Notes: generated by a model not told the origin, from the letters alone. Positions 1-59,189 are shown, numbered from the stretch's first letter. The stretch: DNA of 64,000 bases from Acidobacteriota bacterium (GCA_016716435.1 JADJWI010000004.1:37045-101044); one strand, 5' to 3'. Numbers and translations are program-made.

Positions 1-28
1 CGCCTCGCTGCTCTTCTCGAACGTCCTT

Positions 29-2461
29 ATGATCACCGCCGCACCCGCGGCCGGGAACGCCGAACGAAGTTTGACCAGTGCCGAATTTACCGTTGACCTT
101 ACGCAGCTTGGCCGTCAAGGAAGCCTGCGAGAGGACCTAAGCTTTGATCGCGAGGCTCTTGACCTCATCAATGCGTTAGTTGGTAAGTCCGGCCGTCAGC
201 TTCTTCTCATCGACGAATTCAACAGCGCACAGCGACCCGTTGTTGAACAGCTCGCGATCCGCATTGCAAAGGGCAGCGTACCGGCACCGCTTCAGGGCAA
301 GGCGGTCGTTGTTCTTGACGACGCGAATCTCTTCTCGAACGCCCGCTCGCAGGCTGACCTCGCACATCGGCTCACCACCGTTATAGAGGACGCCGCCGCA
401 CAGGAAGGCGAAGTCATTCTTTTCATCAACAATATCAAGGGGTTTGTTCAGGAATCATCGCTCAGGTCCGTGCTTTGGGAAGCTATTACCGAAGGTGACG
501 TCCGGCTCATCGCCGGTGCCTCTGCTTCGGTTTACGGTGAACTCATCGCCGCCCACCCGGAACTCAGCGAAGTATTTGACGTGATCGAGATCGCTTCGAT
601 CGCCGGAGCAAACGTAGCCGATGCCTCGGCCGCTTCGCCTAATGAATACCGCGGCGACAACGTCTCGGCCGACCTCCGCGACATGATCGCCTCGCAGCCC
701 GCCAACAAGCGGATCAACGCGATCATGCAGGCGAAAAACGCCAATTCACCCGTGCTTCGCGAGACGTTCGACCGACACGGGATCCTTGTTCACGACCGCA
801 TCGGAACCTCAAACACGCTCGTCGTCGAGCTTCCGATAGGTTCGCTCGAAGAGCTTTCGCGAAGCGGACTCATCAACTACATTTCGCCGGATCGCAAGAC
901 CGCACGCACGGGCCACGTGGAAGATACGATCGGCGCGACCGGCAGCCGGATTCAGCAGATCGGCGGCCAGTCGATGAACCTGACCGGTACAGGCGTTGGC
1001 ATTGCTGTTGTCGATTCAGGAATTTTCACCGGACACGCGGGTTGGCTTGATGCGAACGGCCAGTCAAGGGTCAAGGCAAATGTTGATTTTACCGGCGACG
1101 GAACCGGCGATGCCTATGGACACGGATCTCACGTAGCCGGGCTCGCCGCCGGCAATTCGGCAAAGAACAATGGCGCCTATCGCGGCGTAGCTCCGAACGC
1201 GAACATCATTAGTGTCAAGGTTCTCAACAACAACGGTGTCGGCCAGACCTCGTGGCTGCTGAACGGACTTAATTGGATCCTTCAGAACCGCACCCAGCAC
1301 AACATCCGGGTCGTTAACCTCAGCCTCGGCACGGTCGCGGTCGATACCTATACCAACGACCCGATCGGCCTCAAGGTCAAGGAACTTGTAAATAACGGCA
1401 TAGTTGTAGTTGCTGCAGCTGGTAATCTCGGCCGAGCTCCTGCCGGAGGAAAGCTCTATGGCTCGATCCACTCGCCCGGCAACAGCCCGTGGGTGATCAC
1501 GGTTGGCGCAAGCAACAGCTACGGCACCACAAATCGCAGCGACGACCGCGTTACGACCTATAGCTCACGCGGCCCGACCCGCAGCTTCTATACAAATTCG
1601 CTCGGCCAGCGCGTTTTCGATAACGTGATGAAGCCGGACCTCGTTGCCCCGGGCAACCAGTTGATCTCGTATCGGGCACCGAACAACCTGCGCTCCACCT
1701 CAGCCCCTGAACTCGATGTTCCTCTTGCCTCAGGTGAGACTGCCGCAGACGCTCTGATGTACCAGAGCGGAACTTCGATGTCCGCCCCCATCGTCGCCGG
1801 TGCAGCAGCATTGCTGCTCCAGGCGAACCCGAACCTGACCCCCGGAATGGTTCGGATGATCCTTCAATATACCGCTCAGCCGCTGGCCGGTTCGGATATG
1901 TTCGAGCAAGGAGCAGGACAGCTCAACCTTGACGGTGCCTTGGCTCTTGTCGGCGGTTTCCGTGGCGATCTCAATTATTCATCGGGAGTCGGCCGCGCTT
2001 CATGGATGATGGTCTCCGGATGGTCGATGCCTGCAACATCCTCGACCATCGGCGGAAACACCTTCCCGTGGTCGCAGGTGATGACAACGAGCCATTCCTT
2101 CATTACGGGTTCAAATCTCGTAACGCGGTTCCAGGTCGTTTACCGGCCGGCCTTTACGCCCGATAGTGGCATCGCGAACTCACTTGGCTTGTTCACCCTA
2201 AATACGACCTCGTATTACTCGGGAGGACTTTCGCTCAATACTAACGTGATGACCAGCAACGGCGGAGCTTCAGGTTCAGGAACAGTCCTGATGCCTTCCG
2301 GCGTGCTTGTCGGAGACGGAGTGCTGGTCGGCGACGGCGTTCTCATCGGCGACGGCGTTTTGATCGGAGATGGTGTCCTCATCGGAGATGGTGTTCTTAT
2401 CGGAGACGGTGTTCTTATCGGCGACCGTACGCCGAGAATGGAGCCTGTGCTTACTTTCTAA
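29..2461 (+). CDS. Subtilisin-like (S8) serine protease fused to an N-terminal degenerate Clp/Hsp100 AAA+ D1-like module, an I9-type propeptide and C-terminal hexapeptide repeats; possibly 5'-truncated by the window edge
   Basis: 810-aa ORF. Catalytic triad contexts are VVDSGI, HGSHVAGL and GTSMSAPIVAG. Residues ~20-190 read like ClpB D1 (FTVDLTQLGRQG..., EVILFI...), but the Walker A position is DEFNSAQR and Walker B is ILFINNIK. The same frame has no stop between nt 2 and the ATG at 29. Confidence 0.8.
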   Translation: MITAAPAAGNAERSLTSAEFTVDLTQLGRQGSLREDLSFDREALDLINALVGKSGRQLLLIDEFNSAQRPVVEQLAIRIAKGSVPAPLQGKAVVVLDDANLFSNARSQADLAHRLTTVIEDAAAQEGEVILFINNIKGFVQESSLRSVLWEAITEGDVRLIAGASASVYGELIAAHPELSEVFDVIEIASIAGANVADASAASPNEYRGDNVSADLRDMIASQPANKRINAIMQAKNANSPVLRETFDRHGILVHDRIGTSNTLVVELPIGSLEELSRSGLINYISPDRKTARTGHVEDTIGATGSRIQQIGGQSMNLTGTGVGIAVVDSGIFTGHAGWLDANGQSRVKANVDFTGDGTGDAYGHGSHVAGLAAGNSAKNNGAYRGVAPNANIISVKVLNNNGVGQTSWLLNGLNWILQNRTQHNIRVVNLSLGTVAVDTYTNDPIGLKVKELVNNGIVVVAAAGNLGRAPAGGKLYGSIHSPGNSPWVITVGASNSYGTTNRSDDRVTTYSSRGPTRSFYTNSLGQRVFDNVMKPDLVAPGNQLISYRAPNNLRSTSAPELDVPLASGETAADALMYQSGTSMSAPIVAGAAALLLQANPNLTPGMVRMILQYTAQPLAGSDMFEQGAGQLNLDGALALVGGFRGDLNYSSGVGRASWMMVSGWSMPATSSTIGGNTFPWSQVMTTSHSFITGSNLVTRFQVVYRPAFTPDSGIANSLGLFTLNTTSYYSGGLSLNTNVMTSNGGASGSGTVLMPSGVLVGDGVLVGDGVLIGDGVLIGDGVLIGDGVLIGDGVLIGDRTPRMEPVLTF
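2300..2425 (+). repeat. Seven tandem 18-bp units encoding (GVL[VI]GD)7 at the protease C-terminus
   Basis: Direct reading: ggcgtgcttgtcggagac-type units repeat 7 times with synonymous variation. Confidence 0.9.
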
Positions 2462-2505: not shown

Positions 2506-3414
2506 ATGCTGAACGCGTATGTTGCCGCAACGCCAGAAGTGTATCCGGACATCGAACCGGTCACAGCGAGCATTGCTTACGATCTTTCAAACCTACGATC
2601 ACTGAACGCCGAAGACCTTGAAGCGGTTACCGAGTTCCTCGCAAGGCGGCCGGTCCACACCGTCGTGATGAGCAGCTTCATTACCGACAACGGCATTGAA
2701 GGCAAATTGAATCGAGGCGTGTTCTACGGCTACTTCGACGAGAAGTGCGAGCTTGAAGGTGTCGCACTGATCGGCCATTCGACGCTGATCGAGGCCCGGT
2801 CGGATCGCTCCCTGCGGGCATTTGCCCTGAAGGCACGCCAGTCGCGAATCCCGATCAACTTGATCATGTCCGACGACGACGTAGCCGAACGGTTCTTTGA
2901 ACTCTATGCCATCGGGACAATGACCCCGCGGCTGAAATGCACCGAACTTCTGTTCCAGACGGATTTCCCGTTTCCGGTGCAGCGATGCGACTGGCATATC
3001 CGCGAGGCTCGGCTTGAGGATCTGGACCAGATCGCGAGGGCACAGGCAGAGGTCGCCTTTATCGAATCCGGCATCGACCCGATGAGCCGCGACCGCGAAG
3101 GCTTCATGAAGCGGTGTGCACGGCGAATAGAACAAGGCCGGGTTTTCGTGGTCTTCGATGGTGACCGGCTCGTTTTCAAAGCCGACATCATCGCCGAGGC
3201 ATCGGATGTTATCTACCTCGAAGGCATTTATGTTGCTCCGGGGTACCGCGGACGGGGGATCGGTGCAACCTGTTTGGCAGAGGTTTGCCGGCGGCTTTTG
3301 GGCCGGGCGATGTATGTTTGCCTGCTGAGCAACGATGAGGCAAAACACGCCCACCGCAGCTTCGCCAACGCAGGACTCCGGAATACCGGGAAATGCACGA
3401 CATTGTTCGTGTAA
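2506..3414 (+). CDS. GNAT-family N-acetyltransferase (two-lobed, ~300 aa)
   Basis: 302-aa ORF. Acetyl-CoA motif A is YVAPGYRGRGIGATCLAEV. An RBS-like aggagga lies upstream of the ATG. Confidence 0.7.
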   Translation: MLNAYVAATPEVYPDIEPVTASIAYDLSNLRSLNAEDLEAVTEFLARRPVHTVVMSSFITDNGIEGKLNRGVFYGYFDEKCELEGVALIGHSTLIEARSDRSLRAFALKARQSRIPINLIMSDDDVAERFFELYAIGTMTPRLKCTELLFQTDFPFPVQRCDWHIREARLEDLDQIARAQAEVAFIESGIDPMSRDREGFMKRCARRIEQGRVFVVFDGDRLVFKADIIAEASDVIYLEGIYVAPGYRGRGIGATCLAEVCRRLLGRAMYVCLLSNDEAKHAHRSFANAGLRNTGKCTTLFV

Positions 3415-3531
3415 AAACTTGTTTATTTTTAGTGTGGGAATGGGTTATACTTCTCTTTGGGTCTAACCCGTCCCATCTTCCTCCCTCGCTATTTCACCCC
3501 CCGGCTCCTTTACAGAACAAGTGGTAATCTT

Positions 3532-6063
3532 ATGCCCGAGAGCTCAACCGAGCAGTTCCCCGCTTCGAACGCAATCAACTACTATGTTGGTTTGACCATC
3601 TTGGTCGGCGCCGCGGTCTTCGCCTATGCAGCCGCGACGCTCCCTGTCAATTCGCTGGACACCCGGTTTCTTATACTCGCCGGTTGCACGATACTGCTCG
3701 CCTCGCGAGTACTGATCCGCATCCCAACGATCAAATCGCACATAGCCGTCTCTGACATCTTCGTTTATCTGACGTTACTAATGTTTGGCGGTGAGGCGGC
3801 GATCCTGCTTTCGGCTGTCGATACTTTCTTTTCGGCCTGGCGATTCTGCAAAAAATACCGGACGATTCTTTTCAACACCGCGGCCCTCACAATCTCGACT
3901 GCCGCAGTCTATGGCGTCTTGGTCATCTCCGGGCTTTATTCGGAACCGCAGCTCCACGGACAGGCACCGTATTTCCGCGATTTTCTCCTGGCGCTTTCGC
4001 TGATGGCCTTGACGCAGTTTGCCGTCAATACCGTCCTCGCTTCACTCTACGATTCGATCAATCAAGGTGCCCCGCTGCTTGAGACCTGGACATCCAGATA
4101 CCTCTGGAGCTTTATAACTTATCTGGTCGGCGCCGCCGGGGCGGGCCTTCTGGTGCAGTTGGTCGATTACGCAGGCTTCGTCGTTGCCCTCCTCGCATTC
4201 CCTATATTGCTCTTCATTTACTTTTCGTATCGTATGTACATGCGGAACGTCGAGATGAGTGCCGAACAAGCCGAAAAGGCGCAAGAGTATGCCAAGATGA
4301 TCGAAGAGCGCTCTGAAGCCCTTACCGAATCCGAAGAGCGGTTTCGTAGTGCTTTCGATAATGCTCCGATCGGCATCGCACTGGTCAAACCAGGCGGCAA
4401 ATTGCTCAAGGTGAACACGGCTCTCTGCGATATGCTTGGCTATCCGAATGACGAACTGCGCGAACTTTCTGTCCGTCACATCTTTTTCAAGGAAGACCTT
4501 CCAAATGTCTTTTTCCGCGTTGGCGAAGTCGCCTCGGGCACTGTCGCATCGCATCAGATGGAACAGCGTTGCCGAAATCGAAACAATGAGGCGGTTTGGA
4601 CGCTTTGGAGTATGTCGCTCGCTGCAGCGGATGTCTCAAAGGGCCGCGAAATAATATTTCAGATGCAGGACATAACTGCCCGCAAGATCGCAGAAGAAAA
4701 GCTTGTGCACGAGGCGACGCACGATCTGCTGACCGGCCTCCCGAACAGAAACTGTTTTCAACAGAAACTCACCGAGGCCCTCGAACGCTCGCATAGGGAA
4801 AAGAACCACCGCACCAGTGTCCTTTTTATCGATCTCGACCGCTTCAAGTACGTCAATGACAGCCTCGGGCACATGGTCGGCGATCAGCTCCTGATCAGTA
4901 TCTCGAACCGGTTAAAGAATTCGATCCGTCCACACGATCTCGTCGCCAGGCTCGGCGGCGACGAGTTTACCGTCTTGGTCGAAGGAACCTACGACGACGT
5001 TGAGATCGCCGGCATGGCCGAGCGAATCCAGCGAAACCTGGCCAATCCCTTCAACCTACGCGGACACATAGTTTACAGCTCGGCGAGCATCGGTATCCTT
5101 CATGCATCGGAGCGGCACGAGCGGGCCGAGGACATGATGCGCGATGCCGACACCGCAATGTACCACGCGAAGCGGTCAGGAAAGGCGAGATACGAGATCT
5201 TTGATGACTCAATGCACGCGGAAGCCAGCGAAACACTTCGGCTCGAGACCGATCTGCGGCAAGCGATAAAGGAAGGAAAGATCGAGGTCTGCTTCCAGCC
5301 GCTCTTCTCGCTGACTGACCGCGAGTTGACCGGCTTTGAAGCCCTTGCCCGCTGGCATCATCCGGAACTTGGCGAGATTTCGCCGGGCCGTTTCATTCCG
5401 CTTGCCGAGGAGATCGGCTGGATAGATACGCTTGGCGAAAACATTCTTCGAGCCGCCTGCACCCACGTTCGCAATATACATCGCAAGTTCCCTCGCTATG
5501 CTCATACGAAGGTGAACGTAAATCTTTCGTCGCAGCAGTTTCGCAGCACGGGCCTCGTCGGCCGCATCCAGTTGATACTCTCGCAGGCCGGCTTTTCGCC
5601 CGAAAATCTTCGGCTTGAGATAACCGAGTCGGTTTTCTTTGAACACCAGGACCGTGCCATCGCGATGCTTGCCCAACTGCGCGACCTCGGAGTTGAGATA
5701 GACATTGACGATTTCGGCACCGGCTACTCAAACCTCAGTTATTTGGTGCGGCTGCCGATCTCGCGGCTGAAGATCGACAAGTCGTTTGTCCAAATGATCC
5801 GAGAGGATGGCTCGAACACCGAGATCGTCCGGACGATCATCGCCTTGGCACGCAACCTCGATCTGGGCCTGGTTGCCGAAGGCATAGAGCACGAATATCA
5901 GATATCGGCTCTGCGGACACTCGGCTGCGACTCCGGCCAGGGTTACCTTTTTAGCGCGCCGCTACGGCCTGACAAGCTCGAGGAGTTTGTCGCCGATTGC
6001 GACCGCGGTCTCATCGGCAGTACCGACGTGCCGGAATACGCACACATCCTTACCGTCCAATAG
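3532..6063 (+). CDS. Membrane sensor with PAS, GGDEF and EAL domains (c-di-GMP turnover)
   Basis: Multiple hydrophobic helices in the first ~270 aa. Motifs RLGGDEFTVLV, FEALARW and DDFGTGYS are present. The first ATG at 3532 lies inside the ORF that opens at 3457. Confidence 0.9.
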   Translation: MPESSTEQFPASNAINYYVGLTILVGAAVFAYAAATLPVNSLDTRFLILAGCTILLASRVLIRIPTIKSHIAVSDIFVYLTLLMFGGEAAILLSAVDTFFSAWRFCKKYRTILFNTAALTISTAAVYGVLVISGLYSEPQLHGQAPYFRDFLLALSLMALTQFAVNTVLASLYDSINQGAPLLETWTSRYLWSFITYLVGAAGAGLLVQLVDYAGFVVALLAFPILLFIYFSYRMYMRNVEMSAEQAEKAQEYAKMIEERSEALTESEERFRSAFDNAPIGIALVKPGGKLLKVNTALCDMLGYPNDELRELSVRHIFFKEDLPNVFFRVGEVASGTVASHQMEQRCRNRNNEAVWTLWSMSLAAADVSKGREIIFQMQDITARKIAEEKLVHEATHDLLTGLPNRNCFQQKLTEALERSHREKNHRTSVLFIDLDRFKYVNDSLGHMVGDQLLISISNRLKNSIRPHDLVARLGGDEFTVLVEGTYDDVEIAGMAERIQRNLANPFNLRGHIVYSSASIGILHASERHERAEDMMRDADTAMYHAKRSGKARYEIFDDSMHAEASETLRLETDLRQAIKEGKIEVCFQPLFSLTDRELTGFEALARWHHPELGEISPGRFIPLAEEIGWIDTLGENILRAACTHVRNIHRKFPRYAHTKVNVNLSSQQFRSTGLVGRIQLILSQAGFSPENLRLEITESVFFEHQDRAIAMLAQLRDLGVEIDIDDFGTGYSNLSYLVRLPISRLKIDKSFVQMIREDGSNTEIVRTIIALARNLDLGLVAEGIEHEYQISALRTLGCDSGQGYLFSAPLRPDKLEEFVADCDRGLIGSTDVPEYAHILTVQ

Positions 6064-6112: not shown

Positions 6113-6913
6113 TTACTTCTTTAGCCAGCCAAAAAGCGCGTTGACAGTGATGTCGCGGTTCGTTTCGTAGATCGCCTTTGTCAGAGGCACAGACATCGGG
6201 CAGACCTGAACGCAATTCTGCGCATTGCCGCAATTGGTGATGCCATCTTCGCCCATCAGCCCATTGAGCCGTTCATCAATATCGGTCTTGCCGACGGGAT
6301 GCATATTGAACAGCCGAGCCTGAGCGATCGCCTGTGGGCCGATGTAATTGTCGTCGCCGTACTGCGGGCACGCCTCAAGACAGCAGCCGCACGTCATGCA
6401 CCGCGAGAGAGCGTAACGCTCCTGTGCGACCTCGTTCGAGATCGCGGGCCCCGGCCCGAGGCTATGGCTGCCATCGAGTTCGACCCAAGCGTGGACCTGT
6501 TTCAAGTGATCAAACATCTTCGTCCGGTCAACCTTAAGGTCGCGGACATTTGGGAACTTCGACATCGGCTGAAGCGTCACCGTGTCCGAGCCCGAAGCAA
6601 GCAACAGATCATCGATCAGCGCCGAACACGATTGCCGCACCGTCCCGTCGATCACCATCGTACAGATGCCGCAGACCTGCTCAAGACAGCTCATGTCCCA
6701 AACCGGCGGCGTTGTCGCTTTGCCCTCTATGGTTACCGGCTCTTTGCGCACGTCCATCAATGCCGAGATGACGTTCAGGTTTCGCCGATACGGCAGCTCA
6801 AACGTGTCCCAGCTCACCGGTGCGCCCTCTTTCTCACGCCGCTGTATCTTCAGCTTGAACTTCGCCGGCGGCGTCTCCAGCCGCTTTTTTTCTATATGGT
6901 TGCTTTCACTCAT
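6113..6913 (-). CDS. sdhB: Succinate dehydrogenase / fumarate reductase iron-sulfur subunit
   Basis: Cys clusters CGICTM, CMTCGCCLEACP and CGNAQNCVQVCP, in the same operon context as sdhA and sdhC. Confidence 0.9.
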   Translation of the reverse strand: MSESNHIEKKRLETPPAKFKLKIQRREKEGAPVSWDTFELPYRRNLNVISALMDVRKEPVTIEGKATTPPVWDMSCLEQVCGICTMVIDGTVRQSCSALIDDLLLASGSDTVTLQPMSKFPNVRDLKVDRTKMFDHLKQVHAWVELDGSHSLGPGPAISNEVAQERYALSRCMTCGCCLEACPQYGDDNYIGPQAIAQARLFNMHPVGKTDIDERLNGLMGEDGITNCGNAQNCVQVCPMSVPLTKAIYETNRDITVNALFGWLKK

Positions 6914-7031
6914 TTTCTGCTTTTTTCACCGTGTTGTAACGAACGGAATGACAACCAAAGCTCTCTGGTCCGTGATCAAAAATCGACAGCACGACCCATG
7001 CCCTTTGCTTACACTCTCATTCAGCTATACT

Positions 7032-8450
7032 CTACCGGACGAGTTCCCAAATATAGCCCATGTCGACTTTGGGATCATCAGTTGAAATACCGCCTGTAAT
7101 CAAGTATCTGCCATCGTGACTAAACTGCATCGGCATGCTGGAATTAGCCAGAGTCTGAAGTCGTTCTCCTTTGATATTCCAAACTGATATCCTGGTCTTG
7201 ATACCTTCAGTCACCGCAATCATCGAGTCATCGGCACTCCATTTGATAAAAGATGCTGATTTCTCCCCCGTTCGTCGAGGAACACTCGCCAAAAGCTTGC
7301 CCGTATCGGTTTCCCATAGATGAAAGAGTACGGAATTATCATTCTTAGGTTTAGTTAAGAGCATCTCTGAAGTATTTCCTATAGACGTCTCGCCGGATGA
7401 AGAATCAGGAAAGTCAAAAAGGAATTTGCCGGAAGTTGAGTCATAACCGCCGATACCTTTACCGTCTTTGGCCTGAATTAGAACTTTCGTTCCTGCCCTA
7501 TTCCATCCGACTACAATGCCTTTGGACTTCTTGGATCCGATAGAAGTAACTAATTCCAGTCCTTCCGTCTTGAAAACTCTCGTAACTCCCTCATCGTCCG
7601 AAATCGCTAGGTAGCTGTCGTCCCAACTGAATCGGCAAGCTACAATTTTTTTCTTAAACGCGACTTCCTTTTCGAGTGCGCCGGATCCCAAATTCCACAG
7701 CGAAACTTTCTTCAAAGTCGGAACAGCCACAAGCATAAATTTTTCGAAATTGCTTATAATGCTGTGTGAACTCGGACCAATAAGAAGAAATCGGGAATCC
7801 GACTTATCTGACCGCCTTGATGCGCTTTCACCTTCGTTTCTGTCAGTTTTGTCTGAAACGTTGTCGGCGAGAATGGTTTGCCAGTCAGCGTTAAGATAAA
7901 CGCTTTCCATTTCTGGATTGGCCGGCGGCGAGATTCCACCCCTTTGGTGGACAATACCGCCGGTCAGAAAAATAAGGAATCTTCCGAAGTTACTTACCCC
8001 CTTCACCTTTTTTACGACGGAGCCGTTCGAGAGGTCAAAAATGGAATGAGAAAGATCGCGAGCATGATGGCCAACCGCATACTCGCCGTCAGGACTAAAC
8101 GAAAACCCGGCTAACGAACGCCCCGAGAGTCGGCTCTGAATTTTGCCTGTCTCGATATTGTAAACAATGATTTCTTTCGCATTGCCGTTGATCGCAGCGA
8201 ACTTTCCATCTTGGCTAAAACGGGCTAAACCTAATCGCCCCTTCCATACCGAAATGTCACGAAAGTCAGGCAGCTCATGCTTCACAACAAACGGTCCGTC
8301 TTGCTGTCCAAAAATAGATACATGAAGGCAACTACGGTGATCAAGACCCACGTTAATTTTCAGATGAATCGTTTCGTCACTTTTTCTCAGCCGAACGTTG
8401 GTCTCCGGAACTTTCCGTCGATTACTACCTTGCGTCTCTCGCCTCTTCAA
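7032..8450 (-). CDS. WD40/beta-propeller-like repeat protein, AT-rich, lying between sdhA and sdhB
   Basis: 472-aa ORF with recurrent propeller-blade-like strings (FSPDGEYAV, FSWDDSYLAISDDEG, WSADDSMIAVT, FSHDGRYLITGG). No signal peptide is evident. Confidence 0.6.
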   Translation of the reverse strand: MKRRETQGSNRRKVPETNVRLRKSDETIHLKINVGLDHRSCLHVSIFGQQDGPFVVKHELPDFRDISVWKGRLGLARFSQDGKFAAINGNAKEIIVYNIETGKIQSRLSGRSLAGFSFSPDGEYAVGHHARDLSHSIFDLSNGSVVKKVKGVSNFGRFLIFLTGGIVHQRGGISPPANPEMESVYLNADWQTILADNVSDKTDRNEGESASRRSDKSDSRFLLIGPSSHSIISNFEKFMLVAVPTLKKVSLWNLGSGALEKEVAFKKKIVACRFSWDDSYLAISDDEGVTRVFKTEGLELVTSIGSKKSKGIVVGWNRAGTKVLIQAKDGKGIGGYDSTSGKFLFDFPDSSSGETSIGNTSEMLLTKPKNDNSVLFHLWETDTGKLLASVPRRTGEKSASFIKWSADDSMIAVTEGIKTRISVWNIKGERLQTLANSSMPMQFSHDGRYLITGGISTDDPKVDMGYIWELVR

Positions 8451-8475
8451 AGTCTGCTCTTTTTTAGCGTCCGGA

Positions 8476-10332
8476 TCACGCGGCCGCGTTTCTTCCCTGA
8501 TTCTTCGGCGTTTCTTCCCGAGCTTCGGTTTTGTTCGGCCGCGGCGGCGGACGCTTGCCTGATGAGTAGTCCCGCTTTCGCGGTTCTACGATAGAAACGT
8601 CGATCGCTTCGTAGCTGAAGACCGGTGCCTCGGCGGAATATTCTGCGACGGTCGTCTTCATATACTCGTCGTCGTTGCGATCCGGAAACTCCGGCTTGTA
8701 ATGTGCACCGCGTGATTCGTTCCGGTTCAGGGCACCGAGTGTAATAACCCGGGCAAGCTCGAGCATATTCTTAAGCTGCCGGGCATGTGGCACCGCTTGA
8801 GTCGCCCAAAGGTTTGAGTCGTTGATCGAGATCCGCTTCAGCCTTTCCTGTAGCTCGACCAGCTTTTCGTCCGTGGCCTTGAGTTTGTCGTTATAGCGGA
8901 CGACCGTTACGTTGTCGGTCATCCACTTGCCCATCTCTTCGTGAAGTTTGTATTGATTTTCGCCGCCTTCGCTCTTGATTATCGAGTCGTTGATCTCCTG
9001 CTGACGCTTCAGTTCCGCATCGTAGATACCATTCGTTTCGGTCTCGCCACGCTCGACGTTCTTGGCGTATTCCATCGCCGCCGGAGCCGCTACAAAACCG
9101 CCGTAAACGCACGAAAGAAGCGAGTTTGCCCCGAGCCGGTTGGCACCGTGAATGGAGTAATCGCACTCGCCCGCGGCTAGCAGCCCGGGCACGTTCGTCC
9201 GCTGTTCGAAATCCACCCAAAGGCCGCCCATCGAGTAGTGAACGCCCGGGAAAATTCGCATCGGAACATATCGCGGGTCGTCGCCGACGAACATCTCATA
9301 GATCTCAAGGATCGCCCCGAGCTTCCGCGTCAGCGTTTCGGCCGGCACGTGCGTCAGGTCGAGAAATACCTGATTCTCACCGCCGACGCCGAATCCATCC
9401 AGGCAGACCTGAAAGATCTCGCGGGTCGCAATATCGCGGGGCACAAGGTTCCCGTAGGCCGGATATTTTTCTTCGAGGAAGTACCAGCGTTCGCCCGTCG
9501 GAATGTCTTGCGGCTTCCGCTTGTCGCCCGGATCACGCGGCACCCAAACTCGCCCGCCCTCACCGCGAGCAGATTCGCTCATCAGCCGCAGCTTGTCCTC
9601 GCCGGGTATCGATGTCGGGTGAACCTGAATGAACTCGCCATTCGCATATCGCGCACCTTGCTGATATGCAGCCGAAACGGCCGACCCGGTGCACGTCTGC
9701 GAGTTGGTCGATTTTCCAAAAACTAGTCCCGGCCCGCCTGTCGCCATTATCACCGCGTCGGCCTTAAAAGCCTTTAGTTCAAGCGTTTGCAGGTTCATCG
9801 CGATCAGCCCGCGGCAGACCTGATGGTCGTCCATCACAAGCGAGAGCATCTCCCAGCCCTCAAACTTGCGGACCTTTCCGGTTACCTCAAACTTGCGAAC
9901 CTGTTCATCGAGCGCGTAAAGAAGCTGCTGGCCGGTCGAGGCACCTGCAAACGCCGTTCGGTGGTGAAGCGTACCGCCAAACCGGCGAAAATCGAGCAGG
10001 CCTTCCTTTGTTCGAGAGAACGGCACGCCCATCCGATCAAAGAGGTAAATGATCTCCGGCGCCATGTCGGTCATTCGTTGGACCGGCGGTTGGTTAGCGA
10101 GAAAATCGCCGCCATAGACCGTATCGTCGAGGTGCTTCGCCGGCGAATCACCCTCGCCTTTTGTGTTTACGGCTCCATTGATGCCGCCCTGGGCACATAC
10201 CGAGTGCGACCGTTTGACCGGCACGACCGAGATCAGATCGACCTCGTGCCCGGCTTCCGCGATCTTCAACGCCGCGGCAAGCCCCGCAAGGCCGCCGCCG
10301 ACGATCGCAATCTTTATCCCGTTTGATGACAT
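8476..10332 (-). CDS. sdhA: Succinate dehydrogenase flavoprotein subunit
   Basis: IAIVGGGLAGLAAA dinucleotide fold; RSHSVCAQGGI (covalent-FAD His context); HYSMGGLWVD. The ATG at 10332 (MSSNGIK) is preferred over the ORF-track start at 10365. Confidence 0.93.
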   Translation of the reverse strand: MSSNGIKIAIVGGGLAGLAAALKIAEAGHEVDLISVVPVKRSHSVCAQGGINGAVNTKGEGDSPAKHLDDTVYGGDFLANQPPVQRMTDMAPEIIYLFDRMGVPFSRTKEGLLDFRRFGGTLHHRTAFAGASTGQQLLYALDEQVRKFEVTGKVRKFEGWEMLSLVMDDHQVCRGLIAMNLQTLELKAFKADAVIMATGGPGLVFGKSTNSQTCTGSAVSAAYQQGARYANGEFIQVHPTSIPGEDKLRLMSESARGEGGRVWVPRDPGDKRKPQDIPTGERWYFLEEKYPAYGNLVPRDIATREIFQVCLDGFGVGGENQVFLDLTHVPAETLTRKLGAILEIYEMFVGDDPRYVPMRIFPGVHYSMGGLWVDFEQRTNVPGLLAAGECDYSIHGANRLGANSLLSCVYGGFVAAPAAMEYAKNVERGETETNGIYDAELKRQQEINDSIIKSEGGENQYKLHEEMGKWMTDNVTVVRYNDKLKATDEKLVELQERLKRISINDSNLWATQAVPHARQLKNMLELARVITLGALNRNESRGAHYKPEFPDRNDDEYMKTTVAEYSAEAPVFSYEAIDVSIVEPRKRDYSSGKRPPPRPNKTEAREETPKNQGRNAAA

Positions 10333-10380
10333 ATCTTTATGTTCGCGTCTGAACCGCGGACGCATCGCAAACCAATTTCG

Positions 10381-11097
10381 CTAAACACGTTTCGGAGCCG
10401 ATGAATTTGCCTTTGCAGGCTGCTCGCAGAGTGCTGCCGGAAGCAAACCGCACGGCCTGAGGAACGAAACAGCCGCGTTCGTCCCGACCGCAAACAGCCC
10501 AAATGCCAGTGCCGCACAACCGTAAAGAGCATATCGCTGGGCATTTGTGCCGATCAGAATTCCCCAATCGACCGCAAAGAGCCAAAAGCCATAGGCCAGA
10601 TGCCACGCGGTCGCGGCAACACCGAGAATGTAAATGGCAAGTACCCACGGGATCGCAAGGTCGTTCGCAACAATATCAAACGAGCCAACGGCATTTCCCG
10701 CCACCGCGATGTCCGTTAATCCCGGAACTAAGCCAAATCGATAGTGCAGCAAGTGGAAAACGATGAAAAAGAAAAGAAACACCCCGGTTATCCGCTGGAA
10801 CAGGTAGAACCAGTTTCGGCCGTAGCCGTAGTTCATCACATTCGACCGCGCTTCGGACGAAATAATAATGCCGTAGATCGAGTGAAAGGCAAGCGGAAGA
10901 AATATCCCGAAGATCTCTAGAAACAGCAGAAACGGCAGGTCGTGGATGTCCTGTACGGCCTTTTCAAACACTTTTTCGCCGTTCATCGCCTTCGCGTTCG
11001 TGAACATATGGACAAAAAAGAAAAGCCCGAGCGGCACGATACCCGTCAACTGGTGCAGCTTTCTCAATAGGAAGTTTCTGCTATATGTAACAGCCAT
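10381..11097 (-). CDS. sdhC: Succinate dehydrogenase cytochrome b subunit (single-subunit b558-type anchor)
   Basis: 238-aa polytopic membrane ORF with conserved His residues, directly upstream of sdhA. Confidence 0.8.
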   Translation of the reverse strand: MAVTYSRNFLLRKLHQLTGIVPLGLFFFVHMFTNAKAMNGEKVFEKAVQDIHDLPFLLFLEIFGIFLPLAFHSIYGIIISSEARSNVMNYGYGRNWFYLFQRITGVFLFFFIVFHLLHYRFGLVPGLTDIAVAGNAVGSFDIVANDLAIPWVLAIYILGVAATAWHLAYGFWLFAVDWGILIGTNAQRYALYGCAALAFGLFAVGTNAAVSFLRPCGLLPAALCEQPAKANSSAPKRV

Positions 11098-50450: not shown

Positions 50451-51975
50451 GGGGGTTTCTTCCGGGCGGTTTTTTTCTCCGGGGGGGGGAAGGATTCAAA
50501 AAGGGGGGGGGGTCTCCGCTTTTTCCTTTGCGGCTTTTTTTTTTAACTGTCGCGGCGGGCGGAAAGCGTTGACCGGGCCTGTCGCGGTCTTCGCTTTTCG
50601 TTTCCCCGGCGGGAACGGCGGGGGGGGCGGGGGGGGGACGCGGGCGGGGGTCAACAGGGCAAGAGGTTGCCGGGGCAAAGAAGGGTGCCTCGTTTGCTCT
50701 CGGGCCCGGGGCCTGGGCACACCTCGACGGGAATACGGCGCTCGCGGCGCCGGGGCGCGCCCCGCGACGGAAACGGCGCCGCCGCCCTTTTTAAAAGTTT
50801 GTCGTTGCTCGTTTTGATAGAGCAGGCCGCGATGCACCTACCTATTCTTGGCTCTCCGTTCAAGTCTTTTGCATATCCGCCTGGCGGGGGGGTAATAGGG
50901 GGGGGGGGGGTTGGGGGCGGGGGGCCCGGGGGTTTTGGGGGTGGGTGGTTTTTTTTGGGGGGGGGCTTGGGGCCGTGGTTTTTTGGGGGGGGGGGGGTTT
51001 TTTGGGGGGGTGGGCGGGGGGGGGGGGGGGGGGGGGGGCGGGGGGGGGCTCCGGGGGGGGGGGGGGGGGCCTCGGCCCGGGGCCTTCCGGGGGGGGGCCG
51101 GGGCCCTTTTTCCCGGGGCCCCCCGGGCGGGTCGCTTGGCCCCCCCCTTTTTGGCGGCGGGGGGGGCCCGGCGGGCCTTTTGGCCCCCCCGGGGGCGGGG
51201 GCCCCCCCCCGCGGGGGGGTTTTTGGCGGGGGGTTTGGTGGCGGCTTTTTCCCGGGGCGGGGGCCCTTCGGGCGGGGCTTTTGTTTCGGCGGTTGGCCCG
51301 GGCGGGGTTTTTTGGGCGGCGGGGGGCCCCCCGGGCTTGCTTCGGGGGGGGTGTTGTCCTTTCGGGGGGAATTTCGCGGCGGGCTTTTTTTCCGGGGGGG
51401 GCGGGCCGGGTTTTTTTTTTCGGCCCCGGGGGGGGGGGGGCCCCGCCCCCCCTTTTGGCGGGGGGGGCGGCCGCGGGGCGGCCTCCTGGGGGCCCACGGG
51501 GGCCGCTTCGTTCGCGGGTGGCGGGCCGTTCGGCGGGGGGGGCGTTTTTGGGGGTCCCTGGGGGGGGCCGGCCCCGGGTTTTGGGGGGGGCGGCCCCCCG
51601 GGGGGGGCCCCTCCGGGGGGGCCCGCCCCCCCTGGGGGGCGTTTGGGGGGCCCCGGCGGGGGGGGGTTCCCGCCCCGGGGGGGCGGCCCCCCGGGGGGGG
51701 GCCTCCTTGGGGCCGCCCCCTCCGGCCCCCGGGCCCTTTCGGGGTTTTTCCCTTTTTCGTTCTTCCGGCCGGGGGGGCCTTTTTCGTCCCGCCCGGGGGC
51801 GGGGGGGGTTCCGCGGTCCCCCCCCCGCGGCGGGGGGGAACTTTTTCGGGGGGGGTTTTTGGGGGCCCTTTTTTTGGGGGCGGGGGGGGGGGGGCCTATT
51901 TTTTTTGGGGTCCGGGGGGTTTCCGTTTTTTTGTGGCCCCGCCCCCGCGGCGGTCCCGGGGGTCCGGCCTCTTAG
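50451..51975. other. Adenine-depleted tract of G/C/T homopolymer blocks (non-coding; artefact or exotic element)
   Basis: G runs of 23 nt (51016-51038) and 17 nt (51053-51069); T10 at 51411-51420. I count only six A between 50898 and 51970. All six frames are open purely for lack of stop codons. Confidence 0.9.
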
Positions 51976-51979
51976 TTAA

Positions 51980-57367: not shown

Positions 57368-59017
<1,650 letters not shown>

Positions 59018-59029
59018 TCCGCTCCCGCA

Positions 59030-59080
59030 CCCCTCCTTACGAAGGAGGGGTGTCACCGCTTCGGTGACGGGGTGGTTCTC
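59030..59080. repeat. REP-like double-hairpin element, copy B (downstream of groEL)
   Basis: cccctccttacgaaggagggg, then gtcaccgcttcggtgac (7-bp stem), then ggggtggttctc, followed by ttttcc. It may double as the groEL terminator. Confidence 0.85.
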
Positions 59081-59189
59081 TTTTCCGCCAAGAACCGGAA
59101 GCAATAGCGACCGGGTAGTATTACCAAAAGGCCTCGGCATCCGCCGGGGCTTTTTCTTCTACATTTTCGCGCCTCGCAGCGAACATGTT

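What the first reader, a model, noticed from the sequence alone, without database searches (positions are those of the whole stretch)
29..2461. Catalytically dead Clp/Hsp100 D1-like AAA+ module fused to a subtilase
Residues ~20-190 align by eye, block by block, with the first nucleotide-binding domain of ClpB/ClpA. FTVDLTQLGRQGSL matches YTxDLTxxAxxGKLD. VEQLAIRIAKGSVPAPLQGKAVVVLD matches VEGLAQRIxxGxVPExLKxxxxxxLD. EGEVILFI matches ILFIDE, and DVRLIAGAS matches ELxCIGATT. The ATPase residues, however, are gone. Walker A GxPGVGKT reads DEFNSAQR. Walker B DE reads NN. The RRF segment reads SEVF. This pseudo-ATPase is followed by an I9-type propeptide and an intact S8 catalytic domain (Asp, His and Ser all present). 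Next comes a beta-rich region and then seven GVL[VI]GD hexapeptides. I am not aware of a described Clp-derived pseudo-ATPase/subtilase architecture. The dead module could act as a substrate- or partner-docking scaffold. The ORF is open to the window edge, so Clp_N repeats or a signal peptide may lie upstream.
Basis: partly seen in the sequence, partly recalled or inferred. Interest (0 to 1): 0.65.

Follow-up and report, generated by a model that had tools for sequence, protein, structure and literature searches.

The report
Exported subtilase carrying dead ClpB domain
This gene encodes a secreted subtilisin-type protease whose removable pro-region carries a fossil of the ClpB chaperone's first ATPase domain that can no longer bind ATP. 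The combination is conserved in at least 135 species-level genomes of soil and water Acidobacteria, has not been annotated or described, and has no known role yet.

Summary
Residues 21-198 of the ORF (bases 62-595) are a true homologue of the large alpha/beta subdomain of ClpB/Hsp104 NBD1. A single sequence matches PDB ClpB at E 3e-17. A family profile matches at E 5e-35. The AF2 model (pLDDT 92.7) superposes on ClpB/Hsp104 NBD1 at TM 0.83-0.89. The P-loop, arginine fingers and pore-loop tyrosine are absent in all 76 family members examined. Walker B reads NN in this clade.

The fusion is not an assembly error. Seventy-two intact ORFs of 834-883 aa were recovered from independent Pyrinomonadaceae/Blastocatellia MAGs. 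The dead domain has dN/dS of about 0.12 and a constant length of 175-178 aa.

New findings:
- The ORF starts about 20 codons before the window edge with a Sec-type signal peptide, not Clp_N, so the dead domain is exported to an ATP-free compartment.
- It lies between the signal peptide and the I9-like propeptide, joined by a fast-evolving disordered linker, so it is part of the pro-region.
- Relatives without it (about 650 aa) align from the propeptide onward.
- The gene is followed by a GNAT gene and a 7TM-PAS-GGDEF-EAL gene. That pairing also occurs next to relatives without the domain.

The function is inferred: an ATP-independent accessory module of the zymogen. I rate it a new variant of a known kind, of moderate to high interest.

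The parts
2..55 (+). C-terminal part of the signal peptide (ASLLFSNVLMITAAPAAG). The first ~20 codons lie before the window edge.
   Evidence: L003, the 97%-identical relative, starts MIIESLKKGTFRAAVGAFAL|ASLLFSNVLM. P0001 does likewise. Across the family, 72/75 leaders have a net-positive n-region, 69/75 have a 15-aa hydrophobic core, and none has a second TM-like segment.
62..595 (+). PsiClp: nucleotide-blind homologue of the large alpha/beta subdomain of ClpB/Hsp104 NBD1 (residues 21-198).
   Evidence: Matches PDB ClpB NBD1 at E 3e-17 as a single sequence and E 5e-35 as a profile. AF2 pLDDT is 92.7 and pTM 0.88. Foldseek gives TMq 0.83-0.89 and rmsd 1.7-2.9 A to 5wbw, 1jbk and 4hse. dN/dS is 0.11-0.15. 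Length is 175-178 aa in 76 sequences.
212..235 (+). Former Walker A site: DEFNSAQR in place of GEPGVGKT.
   Evidence: Alignment to ClpB. No member of 76 keeps GxxGxGK[ST], and the Lys position is Gln in 65/76.
428..433 (+). Former Walker B acidic pair: NN in place of DE.
   Evidence: Across the family the pair is D[ED] in roughly 60% of members and NN only in the window's clade.
329..355 (+). Former pore loop 1: LFSNARSQA in place of LLAGAKYRG. The substrate-gripping Tyr is lost.
557..580 (+). Former arginine-finger segment: PELSEVFD in place of PALERRFQ.
   Evidence: Neither position is Arg in the tallies for 76 sequences, which list the five commonest residues at each position.
596..652 (+). 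Variable Ala/Ser/Asn/Asp-rich linker (residues 199-217).
   Evidence: AF2 pLDDT is below 50. Mean pairwise identity is 21%, against 50-68% in the flanking domains. Length varies from 15 to 24 aa. Non-synonymous divergence is high.
653..901 (+). I9-like propeptide (residues 218-300), beta-alpha-beta-beta-alpha-beta fold, opening with the conserved motif (Y)RGDNVSxDLRxM.
   Evidence: AF2 secondary-structure order E237-244, H250-259, E262-266, E272-278, H279-288, E291-296. The full model aligns over 524 columns to ProN-Tk-SP 3afg, a construct named for its retained N-propeptide. Relative P0192 has a weak Pfam Inhibitor_I9 hit at the same position. There is no Pfam I9 hit in the family itself.
902..985 (+). 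Propeptide/catalytic-domain junction, with the conserved motif GHVEDTxGA. It is the presumed autoprocessing region.
   Evidence: pLDDT is below 50 for residues 298-309. G304, H305, E307, T309 and G311 are nearly invariant. The cleavage site itself is inferred, not shown.
986..1951 (+). Peptidase S8 catalytic domain (residues 329-650). D338 = bases 1013-1015, H374 = 1121-1123, oxyanion N475 = 1424-1426, S592 = 1775-1777.
   Evidence: Pfam 6e-50. D338, H374 and S592 are invariant in 55 sequences. The closest solved relative is Tk-SP 3afg at E 3.5e-39. dN/dS is 0.04-0.08.
1952..2275 (+). Beta-rich C-terminal domain (residues 651-758), probably a beta-jelly roll as in Tk-SP.
   Evidence: AF2 predicts strands with pLDDT 80-93. 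Foldseek alignment to 3afg covers 524 columns of a 507-residue target.
2300..2425 (+). Seven GVL[VI]GD hexapeptides, fitting the left-handed beta-helix hexapeptide consensus.
   Evidence: TRF: period 18, 7.1 copies, 82% nucleotide identity. Pfam Hexapep scores 28.6 bits against cut-off 27 and hits 48/55 members. dN/dS is 0-0.02 with dS 0.2-0.5. Copy number is 1-13 across the family. AF2 confidence is below 50, so the fold is not established.
2426..2461 (+). C-terminal tail RTPRMEPVLTF plus the stop codon. The family consensus ends ...GD(D/N)TxxM(Q).
   Evidence: The same GDNTASM motif is internal in relatives that carry a C-terminal fn3 domain.
2506..3414 (+). GNAT-family acetyltransferase gene (302 aa), conserved downstream neighbour.
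   Evidence: Pfam Acetyltransf_1/7. Present downstream in most of the loci that extend far enough. The gap is 45 bp with no terminator-like site. Metatranscriptome contigs span the junction.
3457..6063 (+). Polytopic-membrane PAS-GGDEF-EAL protein gene (868 aa), conserved downstream neighbour.
   Evidence: Pfam EAL 3e-71, GGDEF 5e-51, PAS. Conserved next to PsiClp-S8 genes, next to divergent and PsiClp-less relatives, and 45% identical over the full length in L084.

Best explanation
What it is. The gene encodes a Sec-exported pre-pro-subtilase. Its domain order is: signal peptide, PsiClp, flexible linker, I9-like propeptide, active S8 domain, beta-jelly-roll-like domain, then a hexapeptide (beta-helix-type) tail. 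PsiClp is a relic of the large subdomain of ClpB NBD1. It was captured between the signal peptide and the propeptide of a pre-existing, lineage-specific subtilase. It has since lost every element needed to bind or hydrolyse ATP, to sense a neighbouring subunit, or to grip a substrate.

How it most likely works (inferred).
- The domain operates outside the cytoplasm, where there is no ATP, as a rigid, nucleotide-independent protein module tethered by a disordered linker to the propeptide.
- It lies N-terminal to the I9 domain. Autoprocessing at the I9/S8 junction would therefore leave PsiClp attached to the inhibitory propeptide, not to the mature enzyme.
- It should therefore act on the zymogen or on the propeptide-enzyme complex. 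It could control how long the inhibitor stays bound or how it is degraded (latency). Or it could dock the zymogen or the released pro-fragment to a partner or surface.

What is shown: homology, fold, loss of motifs, export signal, position in the pro-region, purifying selection, conservation of the architecture.

What is inferred: signal-peptide cleavage, autoprocessing, release together with I9, and the latency or docking role.
For: Homology and fold.

Loss of ATPase elements: all ATPase, arginine-finger and pore-loop elements are lost in the 76 sequences.

Export: the family has a conserved leader with a positive n-region and a hydrophobic core, and no other TM segment.

Insertion point: the PsiClp-less relative P0216 (650 aa) aligns from window residue 219 to the C-terminus at 47% identity, starting at its own residue 41, directly after its leader.

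An independent module on a flexible tether:
- The linker has pLDDT below 50, while both flanking domains are above 85-90, and full-length pTM is only 0.60.
- The linker is 21% identical on average and variable in length.

Functional, not decaying:
- dN/dS is 0.11-0.15, similar to I9 and the beta domain.
- Length is constant at 175-178 aa and mean identity is 50%.
- Present in 135 species-level genomes, with 72 intact ORFs.

Active protease: D338, H374 and S592 are invariant.

Pro-form architecture: the whole model matches ProN-Tk-SP best.

Precedent for a large pro-region fragment that persists as a separate extracytoplasmic protein: B. subtilis WprA is processed into the CWBP23 propeptide and the CWBP52 protease (PMC8767453).
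Against: - There is no experimental data on any member.
- Signal-peptide cleavage, as opposed to a membrane anchor, is not established. No dedicated predictor was available.
- The I9 assignment rests on the predicted structure. Pfam Inhibitor_I9 does not hit the family.
- I could not inspect model coordinates or PAE, so a stable PsiClp-S8 contact is not excluded.
- Some subtilases keep the propeptide bound (my own knowledge: PCSK9, CspB). In that case PsiClp would be a permanent subunit.
- Most members outside the window's clade keep the Walker B acidic pair and a conserved Gln at the Lys position. This could indicate a residual ligand or metal site rather than a purely structural role.
Confidence: 0.55

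Rival explanations
1. Oligomerisation module. PsiClp keeps the AAA+ habit of forming rings or spirals. It assembles several zymogens or enzymes into a caged, ATP-independent protease complex, as LonC does in the cytoplasm.
For: AAA+ ancestry. LonC shows that a dead AAA-like module can still build a hexameric protease chamber (PMC3391209). The C-terminal hexapeptide tail is of the type that forms trimeric left-handed beta-helices. That suggests the protein may be oligomeric in any case.
Against: Only the large subdomain is present. The lid subdomain and the arginine fingers, which form much of the AAA+ inter-subunit interface, are absent. The domain is joined to the rest by a disordered, variable linker and sits in the part of the protein that is normally cleaved off.
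Confidence: 0.12
2. Partner docking in a c-di-GMP circuit. PsiClp binds a periplasmic or surface partner linked to the co-transcribed 7TM-PAS-GGDEF-EAL protein. Protease activation or sequestration would then be coupled to c-di-GMP signalling, a functional analogue of LapG/LapD.
For: The S8 to GGDEF-EAL gene order, usually with a GNAT gene, is conserved in most of the loci that extend far enough, at about 55% protein identity. Gaps are short and no terminator-like site lies between the genes. Soil metatranscriptome contigs span both junctions.
Against: The same neighbourhood exists beside relatives that lack PsiClp, so the linkage does not depend on PsiClp. The 7TM region appears, by eye, to have no large periplasmic domain of the LapD type, and its GGDEF and EAL motifs are intact. 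Contig-level RNA evidence can contain DNA.
Confidence: 0.1
3. Residual ligand or metal site. The remodelled, acidic former nucleotide pocket binds a cation such as Ca2+ or a non-nucleotide ligand that stabilises or regulates the exported protein. The pocket has D71, E72, Gln at the Lys position, and D/E at Walker B in most members.
For: D71 (57/76), E72 (60/76) and Q77 (65/76) are conserved, and Walker B is D[ED] in about 60% of members. The domain has a net negative charge, median -5. Subtilases, Tk-SP included, commonly depend on Ca2+ (my own knowledge).
Against: The loop between D71 and Q77 is highly variable (K, G, A, F, E, N and others). The window's own clade has NN at Walker B. No known Ca2+-binding motif is conserved.
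Confidence: 0.1
4. Cytoplasmic role before export. PsiClp acts before translocation, for example if the protein is exported folded through Tat. It could keep the zymogen inert or engage cytoplasmic chaperones.
For: A subset of leaders carries a Tat-like motif: TTRRF (22/75 have RR) or TTRKF (28/75 have RK or KR).
Against: The twin arginine is not conserved. The window's clade and many others have a single basic residue or a different motif. The h-regions are strongly hydrophobic (mean KD above 1.8 in 69/75), which is typical of Sec.
Confidence: 0.05
5. Neutral relic or artefact. The module is a decaying passenger with no function, or the fusion is an assembly or gene-calling error.
For: Homologues in L001 and L002 are split into several called genes.
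Against: Those contigs also split the neighbouring GNAT and GGDEF-EAL genes, so the splits are frameshift errors. Seventy-two intact ORFs come from independent assemblies. dN/dS is about 0.12 and the length is constant.
Confidence: 0.02

Closest known systems
ClpB/Hsp104 NBD1 (class-1 Clp/Hsp100 AAA+ D1), e.g. PDB 1jbk, 4hse, 5wbw
   Same: Clear sequence homology (profile E 5e-35) and the same fold for the large alpha/beta subdomain (TM 0.83-0.89). Clp-specific blocks are kept, such as YTxDLTxL...G and VExLAxRIxxGxVP.
   Different: There is no P-loop, arginine fingers, pore-loop Tyr, lid subdomain, M-domain, NBD2 or Clp_N. It is preceded by a signal peptide, and it is fused to a protease zymogen. 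It descends from the family but does not function as a member.
[quoted passage not shown]
   Same: A degenerate AAA+-derived module and a serine protease in one polypeptide. Proteolysis is ATP-independent.
   Different: LonC is cytoplasmic, has an S16 Ser-Lys protease, keeps a complete AAA-like module that still binds nucleotide, and forms a hexameric chamber. Here the protease is an exported S8 zymogen, only the large subdomain survives, and it lies in the pro-region.
Tk-SP pro-form (ProN-Tk-SP, PDB 3afg) and related pro-subtilisins
   Same: Closest solved relative of the protease part (E 3.5e-39). The propeptide, S8 and beta-jelly-roll arrangement matches the predicted model.
   Different: Tk-SP has no domain N-terminal to the propeptide and no hexapeptide tail.
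B. subtilis WprA (processed into the CWBP23 propeptide and the CWBP52 protease; PMC8767453)
   Same: An exported subtilase with an unusually large N-terminal pro-region that persists as a separate extracytoplasmic protein after processing. This is a precedent for a pro-region fragment having a life of its own.
   Different: There is no evidence that CWBP23 is AAA+-related. WprA comes from a Gram-positive cell-wall context. Processing of the present protein is not shown.
SMAX1/D53-type degenerate Clp NBDs (Pfam NBD_SMAX1, PF23569)
   Same: The only domain model that touches the module (3/55 members, sub-threshold). These are also Clp-derived domains used for non-chaperone purposes (my own knowledge).
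   Different: These are plant nuclear proteins with double-NBD architecture. They have no protease fusion and are not exported.
IetAS anti-phage system (ATPase IetA plus subtilase IetS)
   Same: It pairs an ATPase-family protein with an S8 protease. PADLOC and NCBIfam IetS/IteS models hit the S8 core.
   Different: The hits cover only the generic S8 domain, at scores far below the family cut-off (45 bits against 900). There is no IetA neighbour. The protein here is exported, and the ATPase relic is dead and fused.
LapG/LapD periplasmic protease control by a GGDEF-EAL receptor (my own knowledge)
   Same: An exported protease gene next to an inner-membrane GGDEF-EAL protein gene.
   Different: LapG is a DUF920 cysteine protease. 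LapD has a large periplasmic domain and degenerate GGDEF/EAL motifs. Here the protease is S8, the membrane domain has only short loops, and both motifs are intact.

Membership tests
Clp/Hsp100 AAA+ NBD1 (as a functional ATPase) | Sequence homology to the NBD1 large subdomain | tested here: met
   E 3e-17 for the single sequence and E 5e-35 for the profile. Genuine Clp ATPases are retrieved from 1.84 billion representatives.
Clp/Hsp100 AAA+ NBD1 (as a functional ATPase) | AAA+ alpha/beta fold of the large subdomain | tested here: met
   AF2 pLDDT 92.7. Foldseek TMq 0.83-0.89 and rmsd 1.7-2.9 A to 5wbw, 1jbk and 4hse.
Clp/Hsp100 AAA+ NBD1 (as a functional ATPase) | Walker A P-loop GxxGxGK[ST] | tested here: not met
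   DEFNSAQR in the window. Absent in 76/76 members, with Lys replaced by Gln in 65/76.
Clp/Hsp100 AAA+ NBD1 (as a functional ATPase) | Walker B hhhhDE | tested here: not met
   LFINN in the window. D[ED] is retained in about 60% of other members.
Clp/Hsp100 AAA+ NBD1 (as a functional ATPase) | Arginine fingers (ClpB ALERRFQ) | tested here: not met
   PELSEVFD in the window. Arg does not appear at either position in the tallies for 76 sequences.
Clp/Hsp100 AAA+ NBD1 (as a functional ATPase) | Pore-loop-1 aromatic residue (KYRG) | tested here: not met
   LFSNARSQA in the window. LFSNA is the family consensus.
Clp/Hsp100 AAA+ NBD1 (as a functional ATPase) | Lid (small helical) subdomain, M-domain, NBD2, Clp_N | tested here: not met
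   The homology stops at ClpB residue ~335. A disordered linker and the propeptide follow. No AAA_lid_9, Clp_N or AAA_2 hits in 55 members. A signal peptide lies upstream.
Clp/Hsp100 AAA+ NBD1 (as a functional ATPase) | ATP binding and hydrolysis | not testable with these tools
   Needs purified protein. The sequence predicts none.
Subtilase (MEROPS/Pfam S8) | Peptidase_S8 domain above the gathering threshold | tested here: met
   170.6 bits against cut-off 21.8. 55/55 members hit.
Subtilase (MEROPS/Pfam S8) | Asp-His-Ser triad and oxyanion Asn in canonical motifs (DSG, HGT/S, GTSM) | tested here: met
   D338, H374, N475 and S592 are present. D338, H374 and S592 are invariant in 55 sequences.
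Subtilase (MEROPS/Pfam S8) | I9-type N-terminal propeptide | tested here: inconclusive
   AF2 predicts the beta-alpha-beta-beta-alpha-beta topology, and the model aligns with ProN-Tk-SP. No family member reaches Pfam Inhibitor_I9. The only sequence hit is 19 bits in relative P0192.
Subtilase (MEROPS/Pfam S8) | Autocatalytic removal of the propeptide | not testable with these tools
   Inferred from family behaviour.
Sec-type (SPase I) signal peptide | Positive n-region, hydrophobic h-region of 10-20 aa, small residues at -3/-1, no lipobox Cys | tested here: met
   Heuristic tally: 72/75 net-positive n-region and 69/75 hydrophobic core. The consensus is ...ASFVFSNAFA|V. In the window only the last 18 residues are visible, and L003 supplies the rest. 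No dedicated predictor was available. Cleavage, as opposed to an anchor, was not tested.
Tat signal peptide | Conserved twin arginine (S/T-R-R-x-F-L-K) | tested here: not met
   RR occurs in only 22/75 leaders and is absent from the window's clade.
Left-handed beta-helix hexapeptide repeat (Pfam Hexapep) | [LIV]-[GAED]-x-x-[STAV]-x repeats above the Pfam threshold | tested here: met
   28.6 bits against cut-off 27. 48/55 members hit. VGDGVL fits the consensus.
Left-handed beta-helix hexapeptide repeat (Pfam Hexapep) | Beta-helix fold | tested here: inconclusive
   AF2 pLDDT is below 50 over residues 759-819.
LonC-type ATP-independent AAA-like protease | Lon S16 Ser-Lys protease domain joined to a complete AAA-like module | tested here: not met
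   The protease is S8, and only the large subdomain is present.
IetAS defence system | Full-length IetS match and an adjacent IetA ATPase gene | tested here: not met
   Only the S8 core matches. The NCBIfam IteS score is 45 bits against cut-off 900. The downstream neighbours are GNAT and GGDEF-EAL. In the close relative L003 the upstream neighbour looks like a malate/lactate dehydrogenase, judged by eye from the translation.

The most novel reading that the evidence does not exclude
An AAA+ fold has been moved out of the cytoplasm and re-used as an ATP-independent extracytoplasmic module. It would control a secreted protease, for example as a holdase-like or docking domain on the pro-fragment. 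It would set where and when the subtilase is unleashed, possibly in concert with the co-transcribed 7TM-PAS-GGDEF-EAL enzyme. That would be a LapG/LapD-like protease and c-di-GMP circuit built from unrelated parts. It would be the first described bacterial case of an exported, nucleotide-free AAA+ derivative with a regulatory role.
Probability: 0.12. Interest if true: 0.8.

Novelty: new variant of a known kind. Interest (0 to 1): 0.58.

Why it matters
AAA+ domains are the standard example of ATP-driven cytoplasmic machines. This family shows that the ClpB NBD1 core can be captured, stripped of every catalytic and substrate-gripping element, and exported. It has then been kept under purifying selection in at least 135 species-level genomes of a widespread soil, water and biofilm lineage.

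The family offers:
- a natural experiment on what an AAA+ scaffold can do without nucleotide;
- a new kind of subtilase pro-region, relevant to zymogen control and enzyme engineering;
- a domain that current Pfam and NCBIfam models miss, so a new family model is warranted;
- a lead on a conserved subtilase and GGDEF-EAL gene pair in Acidobacteria, whose extracellular proteolysis and biofilm biology are poorly understood.

Tried and rejected
- Exact look-up of the 810-aa ATG-started product found nothing. The real gene starts before the window edge.
- The first word-indexed homology search with the N-terminal 244 aa found only 4 hits, all short or split. This briefly suggested a stand-alone protein. 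Reading L001 and L002 showed frameshifted assemblies, and the genome scan recovered intact fusions.
- Pfam does not see the module or the propeptide, in the window protein or in 55 members.
- Cluster look-up gave no taxonomy for the divergent members P0080, P0083, P0134 and P0135, so spread beyond Pyrinomonadaceae/Blastocatellia is unresolved.
- I initially took the fn3 domain of the ~733-aa relatives to be an alternative N-terminal module. It is C-terminal.
- Defence-system membership (IetS) is rejected. Only the S8 core matches.
- Tat export was considered and judged unlikely.
- A PsiClp-specific link to the GGDEF-EAL gene was weakened, because PsiClp-less relatives have the same neighbour.
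- Literature searches for the architecture returned nothing relevant. One search failed on a term that was too short.
- Rfam found no RNA family in the window.

Full report
**1. The observation**

The ORF at 29..2461 (+) is real, and its frame is open back to base 2. Numbering below counts from base 2.

- Pfam sees only Peptidase_S8 (residues 329-637, 6e-50) and Hexapep (774-807, 28.6 bits against cut-off 27).
- NCBIfam ClpB, ClpV, ClpA, ClpG and ClpK models nevertheless match residues 22-198 at E 4e-16 to 5e-8.
- phmmer against PDB sequences puts ClpB NBD1 structures first. 4hse, 1qvr and 1jbk score E 3e-17 to 5e-16, aligning residues 27-197 to T. thermophilus ClpB 154-325.
GEPGVGKT becomes DEFNSAQR, IDE becomes INN, KYRGEFEER becomes RSQADLAHR, and ALERRFQ becomes ELSEVFD. 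Coordinates were checked.

**2. It is a conserved gene family, not an assembly accident**

A pattern scan of one genome per species found 135 genomes with a relative. All 80 loci kept are Acidobacteriota MAGs, labelled Pyrinomonadaceae, Pyrinomonadales, Blastocatellia or 'Chloracidobacterium'.

- In these loci I found 72 uninterrupted ORFs of 834-883 aa with the same domain order.
- The first hits from the protein database were short (P0002 is 286 aa, P0003 is 311 aa). Their contigs carry the remaining pieces of the gene in other frames, and their GNAT and GGDEF-EAL neighbours are split as well. These are frameshifted assemblies.
- A HMMER search of 1.84 billion representatives with a 5-sequence profile gave 91 proteins at E<1e-30. 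The full-length proteins I checked among the best hits (P0005, P0034, P0080, P0083, P0134, P0135; E 5e-95 to 1e-25) have S8 as their only Pfam domain. Genuine Clp ATPases follow from about 1e-28.
- More divergent members (P0080, P0083, P0134, P0135; 40-42% identity) share the leader, the dead module, S8 and the hexapeptide tail. P0080 still reads GEAGAETR at the P-loop, an intermediate state.
- Sources name these proteins only 'S8 family serine peptidase', 'subtilisin family serine protease' or 'AprX'.

**3. What lies upstream**

L003 is 97% identical over the N-terminal 253 residues and 93% over the whole protein. It comes from contig LNDP01000023.1, 'Acidobacteria bacterium Ga0074141'. Its protein starts MIIESLKKGTFRAAVGAFAL, then continues with the window's ASLLFSNVLMITAAPAAG.

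Across the family the N-terminus is a classical leader, with consensus MKISIFGFATTRRFAAIAILASFVFSNAFA|V:

- 72/75 leaders have a net-positive n-region.
- 69/75 have a 15-aa hydrophobic core with mean Kyte-Doolittle above 1.8.
- No sequence has a second TM-like window.
- A twin arginine is present in only 22/75 and is absent from the window's clade, so Sec export is much more likely than Tat.

There are no Clp_N repeats. The dead module begins about 7 residues after the predicted leader. The whole protein is therefore extracytoplasmic, where there is no ATP.

**4. Anatomy from structure prediction**

Full-length AF2 used a 55-sequence alignment and gave mean pLDDT 79.8 and pTM 0.60.

| Region | Residues | AF2 result |
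|---|---|---|
| PsiClp | 21-198 | pLDDT mostly above 90 |
| Linker | 199-217 | pLDDT below 50 |
| Propeptide | about 220-297 | beta-alpha-beta-beta-alpha-beta unit, the I9 topology |
| Junction | 298-309 | flexible |
| S8 domain | 329-650 | confident |
| Beta domain | about 660-755 | pLDDT 80-93 |
| Hexapeptide tail | 759-819 | pLDDT below 50 |

- The whole model matches ProN-Tk-SP best. 3afg scores E 2e-28 over 524 aligned columns of a 507-residue target, which covers most of that chain.
- By sequence, Tk-SP is also the closest solved protease, at E 3.5e-39.
- PsiClp modelled alone has pLDDT 92.7 and pTM 0.88.
- That model superposes on Hsp104(1-360) 5wbw (TMq 0.87, rmsd 1.7 A), on E. coli ClpB NBD1 1jbk (TMq 0.84, TMt 0.83), and on 4hse (TMq 0.83).
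- A 48-sequence profile of the N-terminal region hits ClpB NBD1 at E 5e-35. ClpB ranks above Hsp104, ClpC and ClpA.
- The match ends at ClpB residue ~335, the end of the large subdomain.

**5. How dead is it?**

I tallied the motifs in 76 aligned sequences.

- No sequence has a P-loop. The Lys position is Gln in 65/76.
- Arg does not appear at either arginine-finger position (G/A/E/K followed by Y/L/F).
- The pore-loop Tyr is gone. LFSNA is nearly invariant.
- Sensor-1 reads GSS or GAS.
- The Walker B acidic pair survives as D[ED] in about 60% of members. It is NN in the window's clade.
- The best-conserved stretches are (Y/F)TTDLTQLGRxGRL and VEQLAxRIAKGxVP, both inherited Clp signatures.

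**6. Is it maintained by selection?**

Yes.

| Region | dN/dS, window clade | Mean pairwise identity, deeper family |
|---|---|---|
| PsiClp | 0.11-0.15 | 50% |
| I9 | 0.06-0.15 | 68% |
| S8 | 0.04-0.08 | 65% |
| Beta domain | 0.05-0.15 | 48% |
| Hexapeptides | 0-0.02 (dS 0.2-0.5) | not computed |
| Linker | fast, high dN | 21% |

- PsiClp length is fixed at 175-178 aa. The linker varies from 15 to 24 aa.
- The hexapeptide DNA units are only 82% identical to one another. The perfect peptide repeat is therefore selected, not a recent slippage product.

**7. Where the module was inserted**

Many relatives in the same bacterial group lack PsiClp. Some are about 650 aa. Others are about 733 aa with a C-terminal fn3 domain.

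- P0216 (650 aa) aligns with the window protein from residue 219 (DNVSADLRDM) to the C-terminal GD-x-T-x-x-M motif at 47% identity. The alignment starts at its own residue 41, just after its leader.
- PsiClp plus the linker is therefore a clean insertion between the signal peptide and the propeptide of an older, lineage-specific subtilase.

**8. Genomic context**

The gene is followed at 45 bp by a 302-aa GNAT acetyltransferase. A further 43 bp on lies an 868-aa polytopic-membrane PAS-GGDEF-EAL protein. No terminator-like site lies between them, and one follows the third gene.

- This order is kept in most of the 80 loci that extend far enough, at about 55% protein identity. The GNAT gene is sometimes missing.
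- The divergent members P0182 and P0172 also have a GGDEF-EAL gene next door.
- So do the PsiClp-less relatives P0216 and P0226, in the order S8, PAS-GGDEF-EAL, GNAT, often with two tandem S8 genes.
- The L084 GGDEF-EAL protein is 45% identical to the window's over its full length, including the membrane domain.
- The subtilase and c-di-GMP-enzyme pairing is therefore older than PsiClp and does not depend on it.
- Soil metatranscriptome contigs from relatives about 92% identical cover the gene and span both intergenic junctions. This is consistent with co-transcription, with the caveat that such libraries can contain DNA.
- DNA of close relatives occurs in sludge, activated-carbon, biofilter, drinking-water, biofilm and soil metagenomes.

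**9. Mechanism**

Shown:
- an exported, active-looking pro-subtilase;
- a nucleotide-blind ClpB NBD1 core in its pro-region;
- a flexible tether joining the two;
- purifying selection on the module.

Inferred:
- After Sec export and leader cleavage, the I9 domain chaperones and inhibits the S8 domain.
- Autoprocessing at the junction leaves a PsiClp-I9 fragment of roughly 280 residues and a mature enzyme made of the S8, beta and hexapeptide-tail parts.
- PsiClp can then influence the enzyme only through the pro-fragment. It could tune how long inhibition lasts, or dock the zymogen or pro-fragment to a partner or surface.
- WprA of B. subtilis is a precedent. Its large pro-region persists as the wall protein CWBP23 (PMC8767453).

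Rivals, each detailed in the Rival explanations section with its refuting result:
- ring-type oligomerisation as in LonC (PMC3391209);
- a remodelled acidic ligand or metal pocket;
- docking within the c-di-GMP circuit;
- a cytoplasmic role before Tat export;
- a neutral relic.

**10. Comparison and novelty**

By descent the module belongs to Clp/Hsp100 NBD1. It fails every functional membership criterion of an AAA+ ATPase. The protease is an ordinary S8 with a Tk-SP-like layout.

Dead AAA+ modules fused to proteases are known (LonC), and so are subtilases with accessory domains. An exported pseudo-AAA+ domain placed in a subtilase pro-region was not found in Pfam, NCBIfam, PADLOC or the searchable literature. 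I rate it a new variant of a known kind. The finding is real, widespread in one phylum-level lineage and unannotated, but its function is still inferred.

Noticed in passing
window 50900-51950: About 1 kb of poly-G and G+T low-complexity sequence (GC 0.685, AT skew -0.42, many overlapping TRF rows). It looks like a sequencing or assembly artefact. The ORFs at 50667-51983 are probably spurious.
   Followed up: partly
window 2506-6063; L083, L084, L085, L086: The subtilase is followed by a 7TM-PAS-GGDEF-EAL gene, usually with a GNAT acetyltransferase. This also holds beside relatives without the Clp relic, and the GGDEF-EAL proteins are orthologous (45% identity over the full length). The conserved exported-protease and c-di-GMP-enzyme pair is undescribed as far as I could find.
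   Followed up: partly
window 62-2275 compared with L003: Synonymous divergence from the closest relative is mosaic: dS 0.06 in the Clp relic, 0.54 in S8 and 1.14 in the beta domain. This suggests recombination between strains within the gene.
   Followed up: no
L031 2058-4607 and 5941-8547; L078 5274-7835 and 9049-11655: Some genomes carry two copies of the Clp-relic subtilase in tandem. The copies have different hexapeptide copy numbers and different C-terminal tails.
   Followed up: no
family leaders (e.g. L009, L012, L035): Many leaders read TTRRFAAIAIL or TTRKF, which resembles a Tat motif. The twin arginine is present in only 22/75 and is absent from the window's clade.
   Followed up: partly
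window 2300-2425 and family C-termini: The hexapeptide GVL[VI]GD is under extreme purifying selection (dN/dS near 0), although copy number ranges from 1 to 13. It is always followed by a GD(D/N)TxxM motif, which is internal in relatives carrying a C-terminal fn3. AF2 does not fold it confidently, and its role (trimeric beta-helix, Ca2+-dependent solenoid or stalk) is open.
   Followed up: partly
window 6113-11097 (- strand): A succinate dehydrogenase/fumarate reductase cluster (Fe-S subunit, flavoprotein, cytochrome b) is interrupted by a 472-aa WD40-type beta-propeller gene at 7032-8450, between the Fe-S and flavoprotein genes.
   Followed up: no
window 57374-59140: Long overlapping ORFs on both strands (547 and 578 aa). 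The minus-strand one has no Pfam match. A 9-bp tandem repeat GGCGGAATG lies at 58964-59005.
   Followed up: no
L086 1853-4696: In the divergent member's locus, a 947-aa CHAT (caspase-like) and TPR protein gene lies directly upstream of the Clp-relic subtilase.
   Followed up: no
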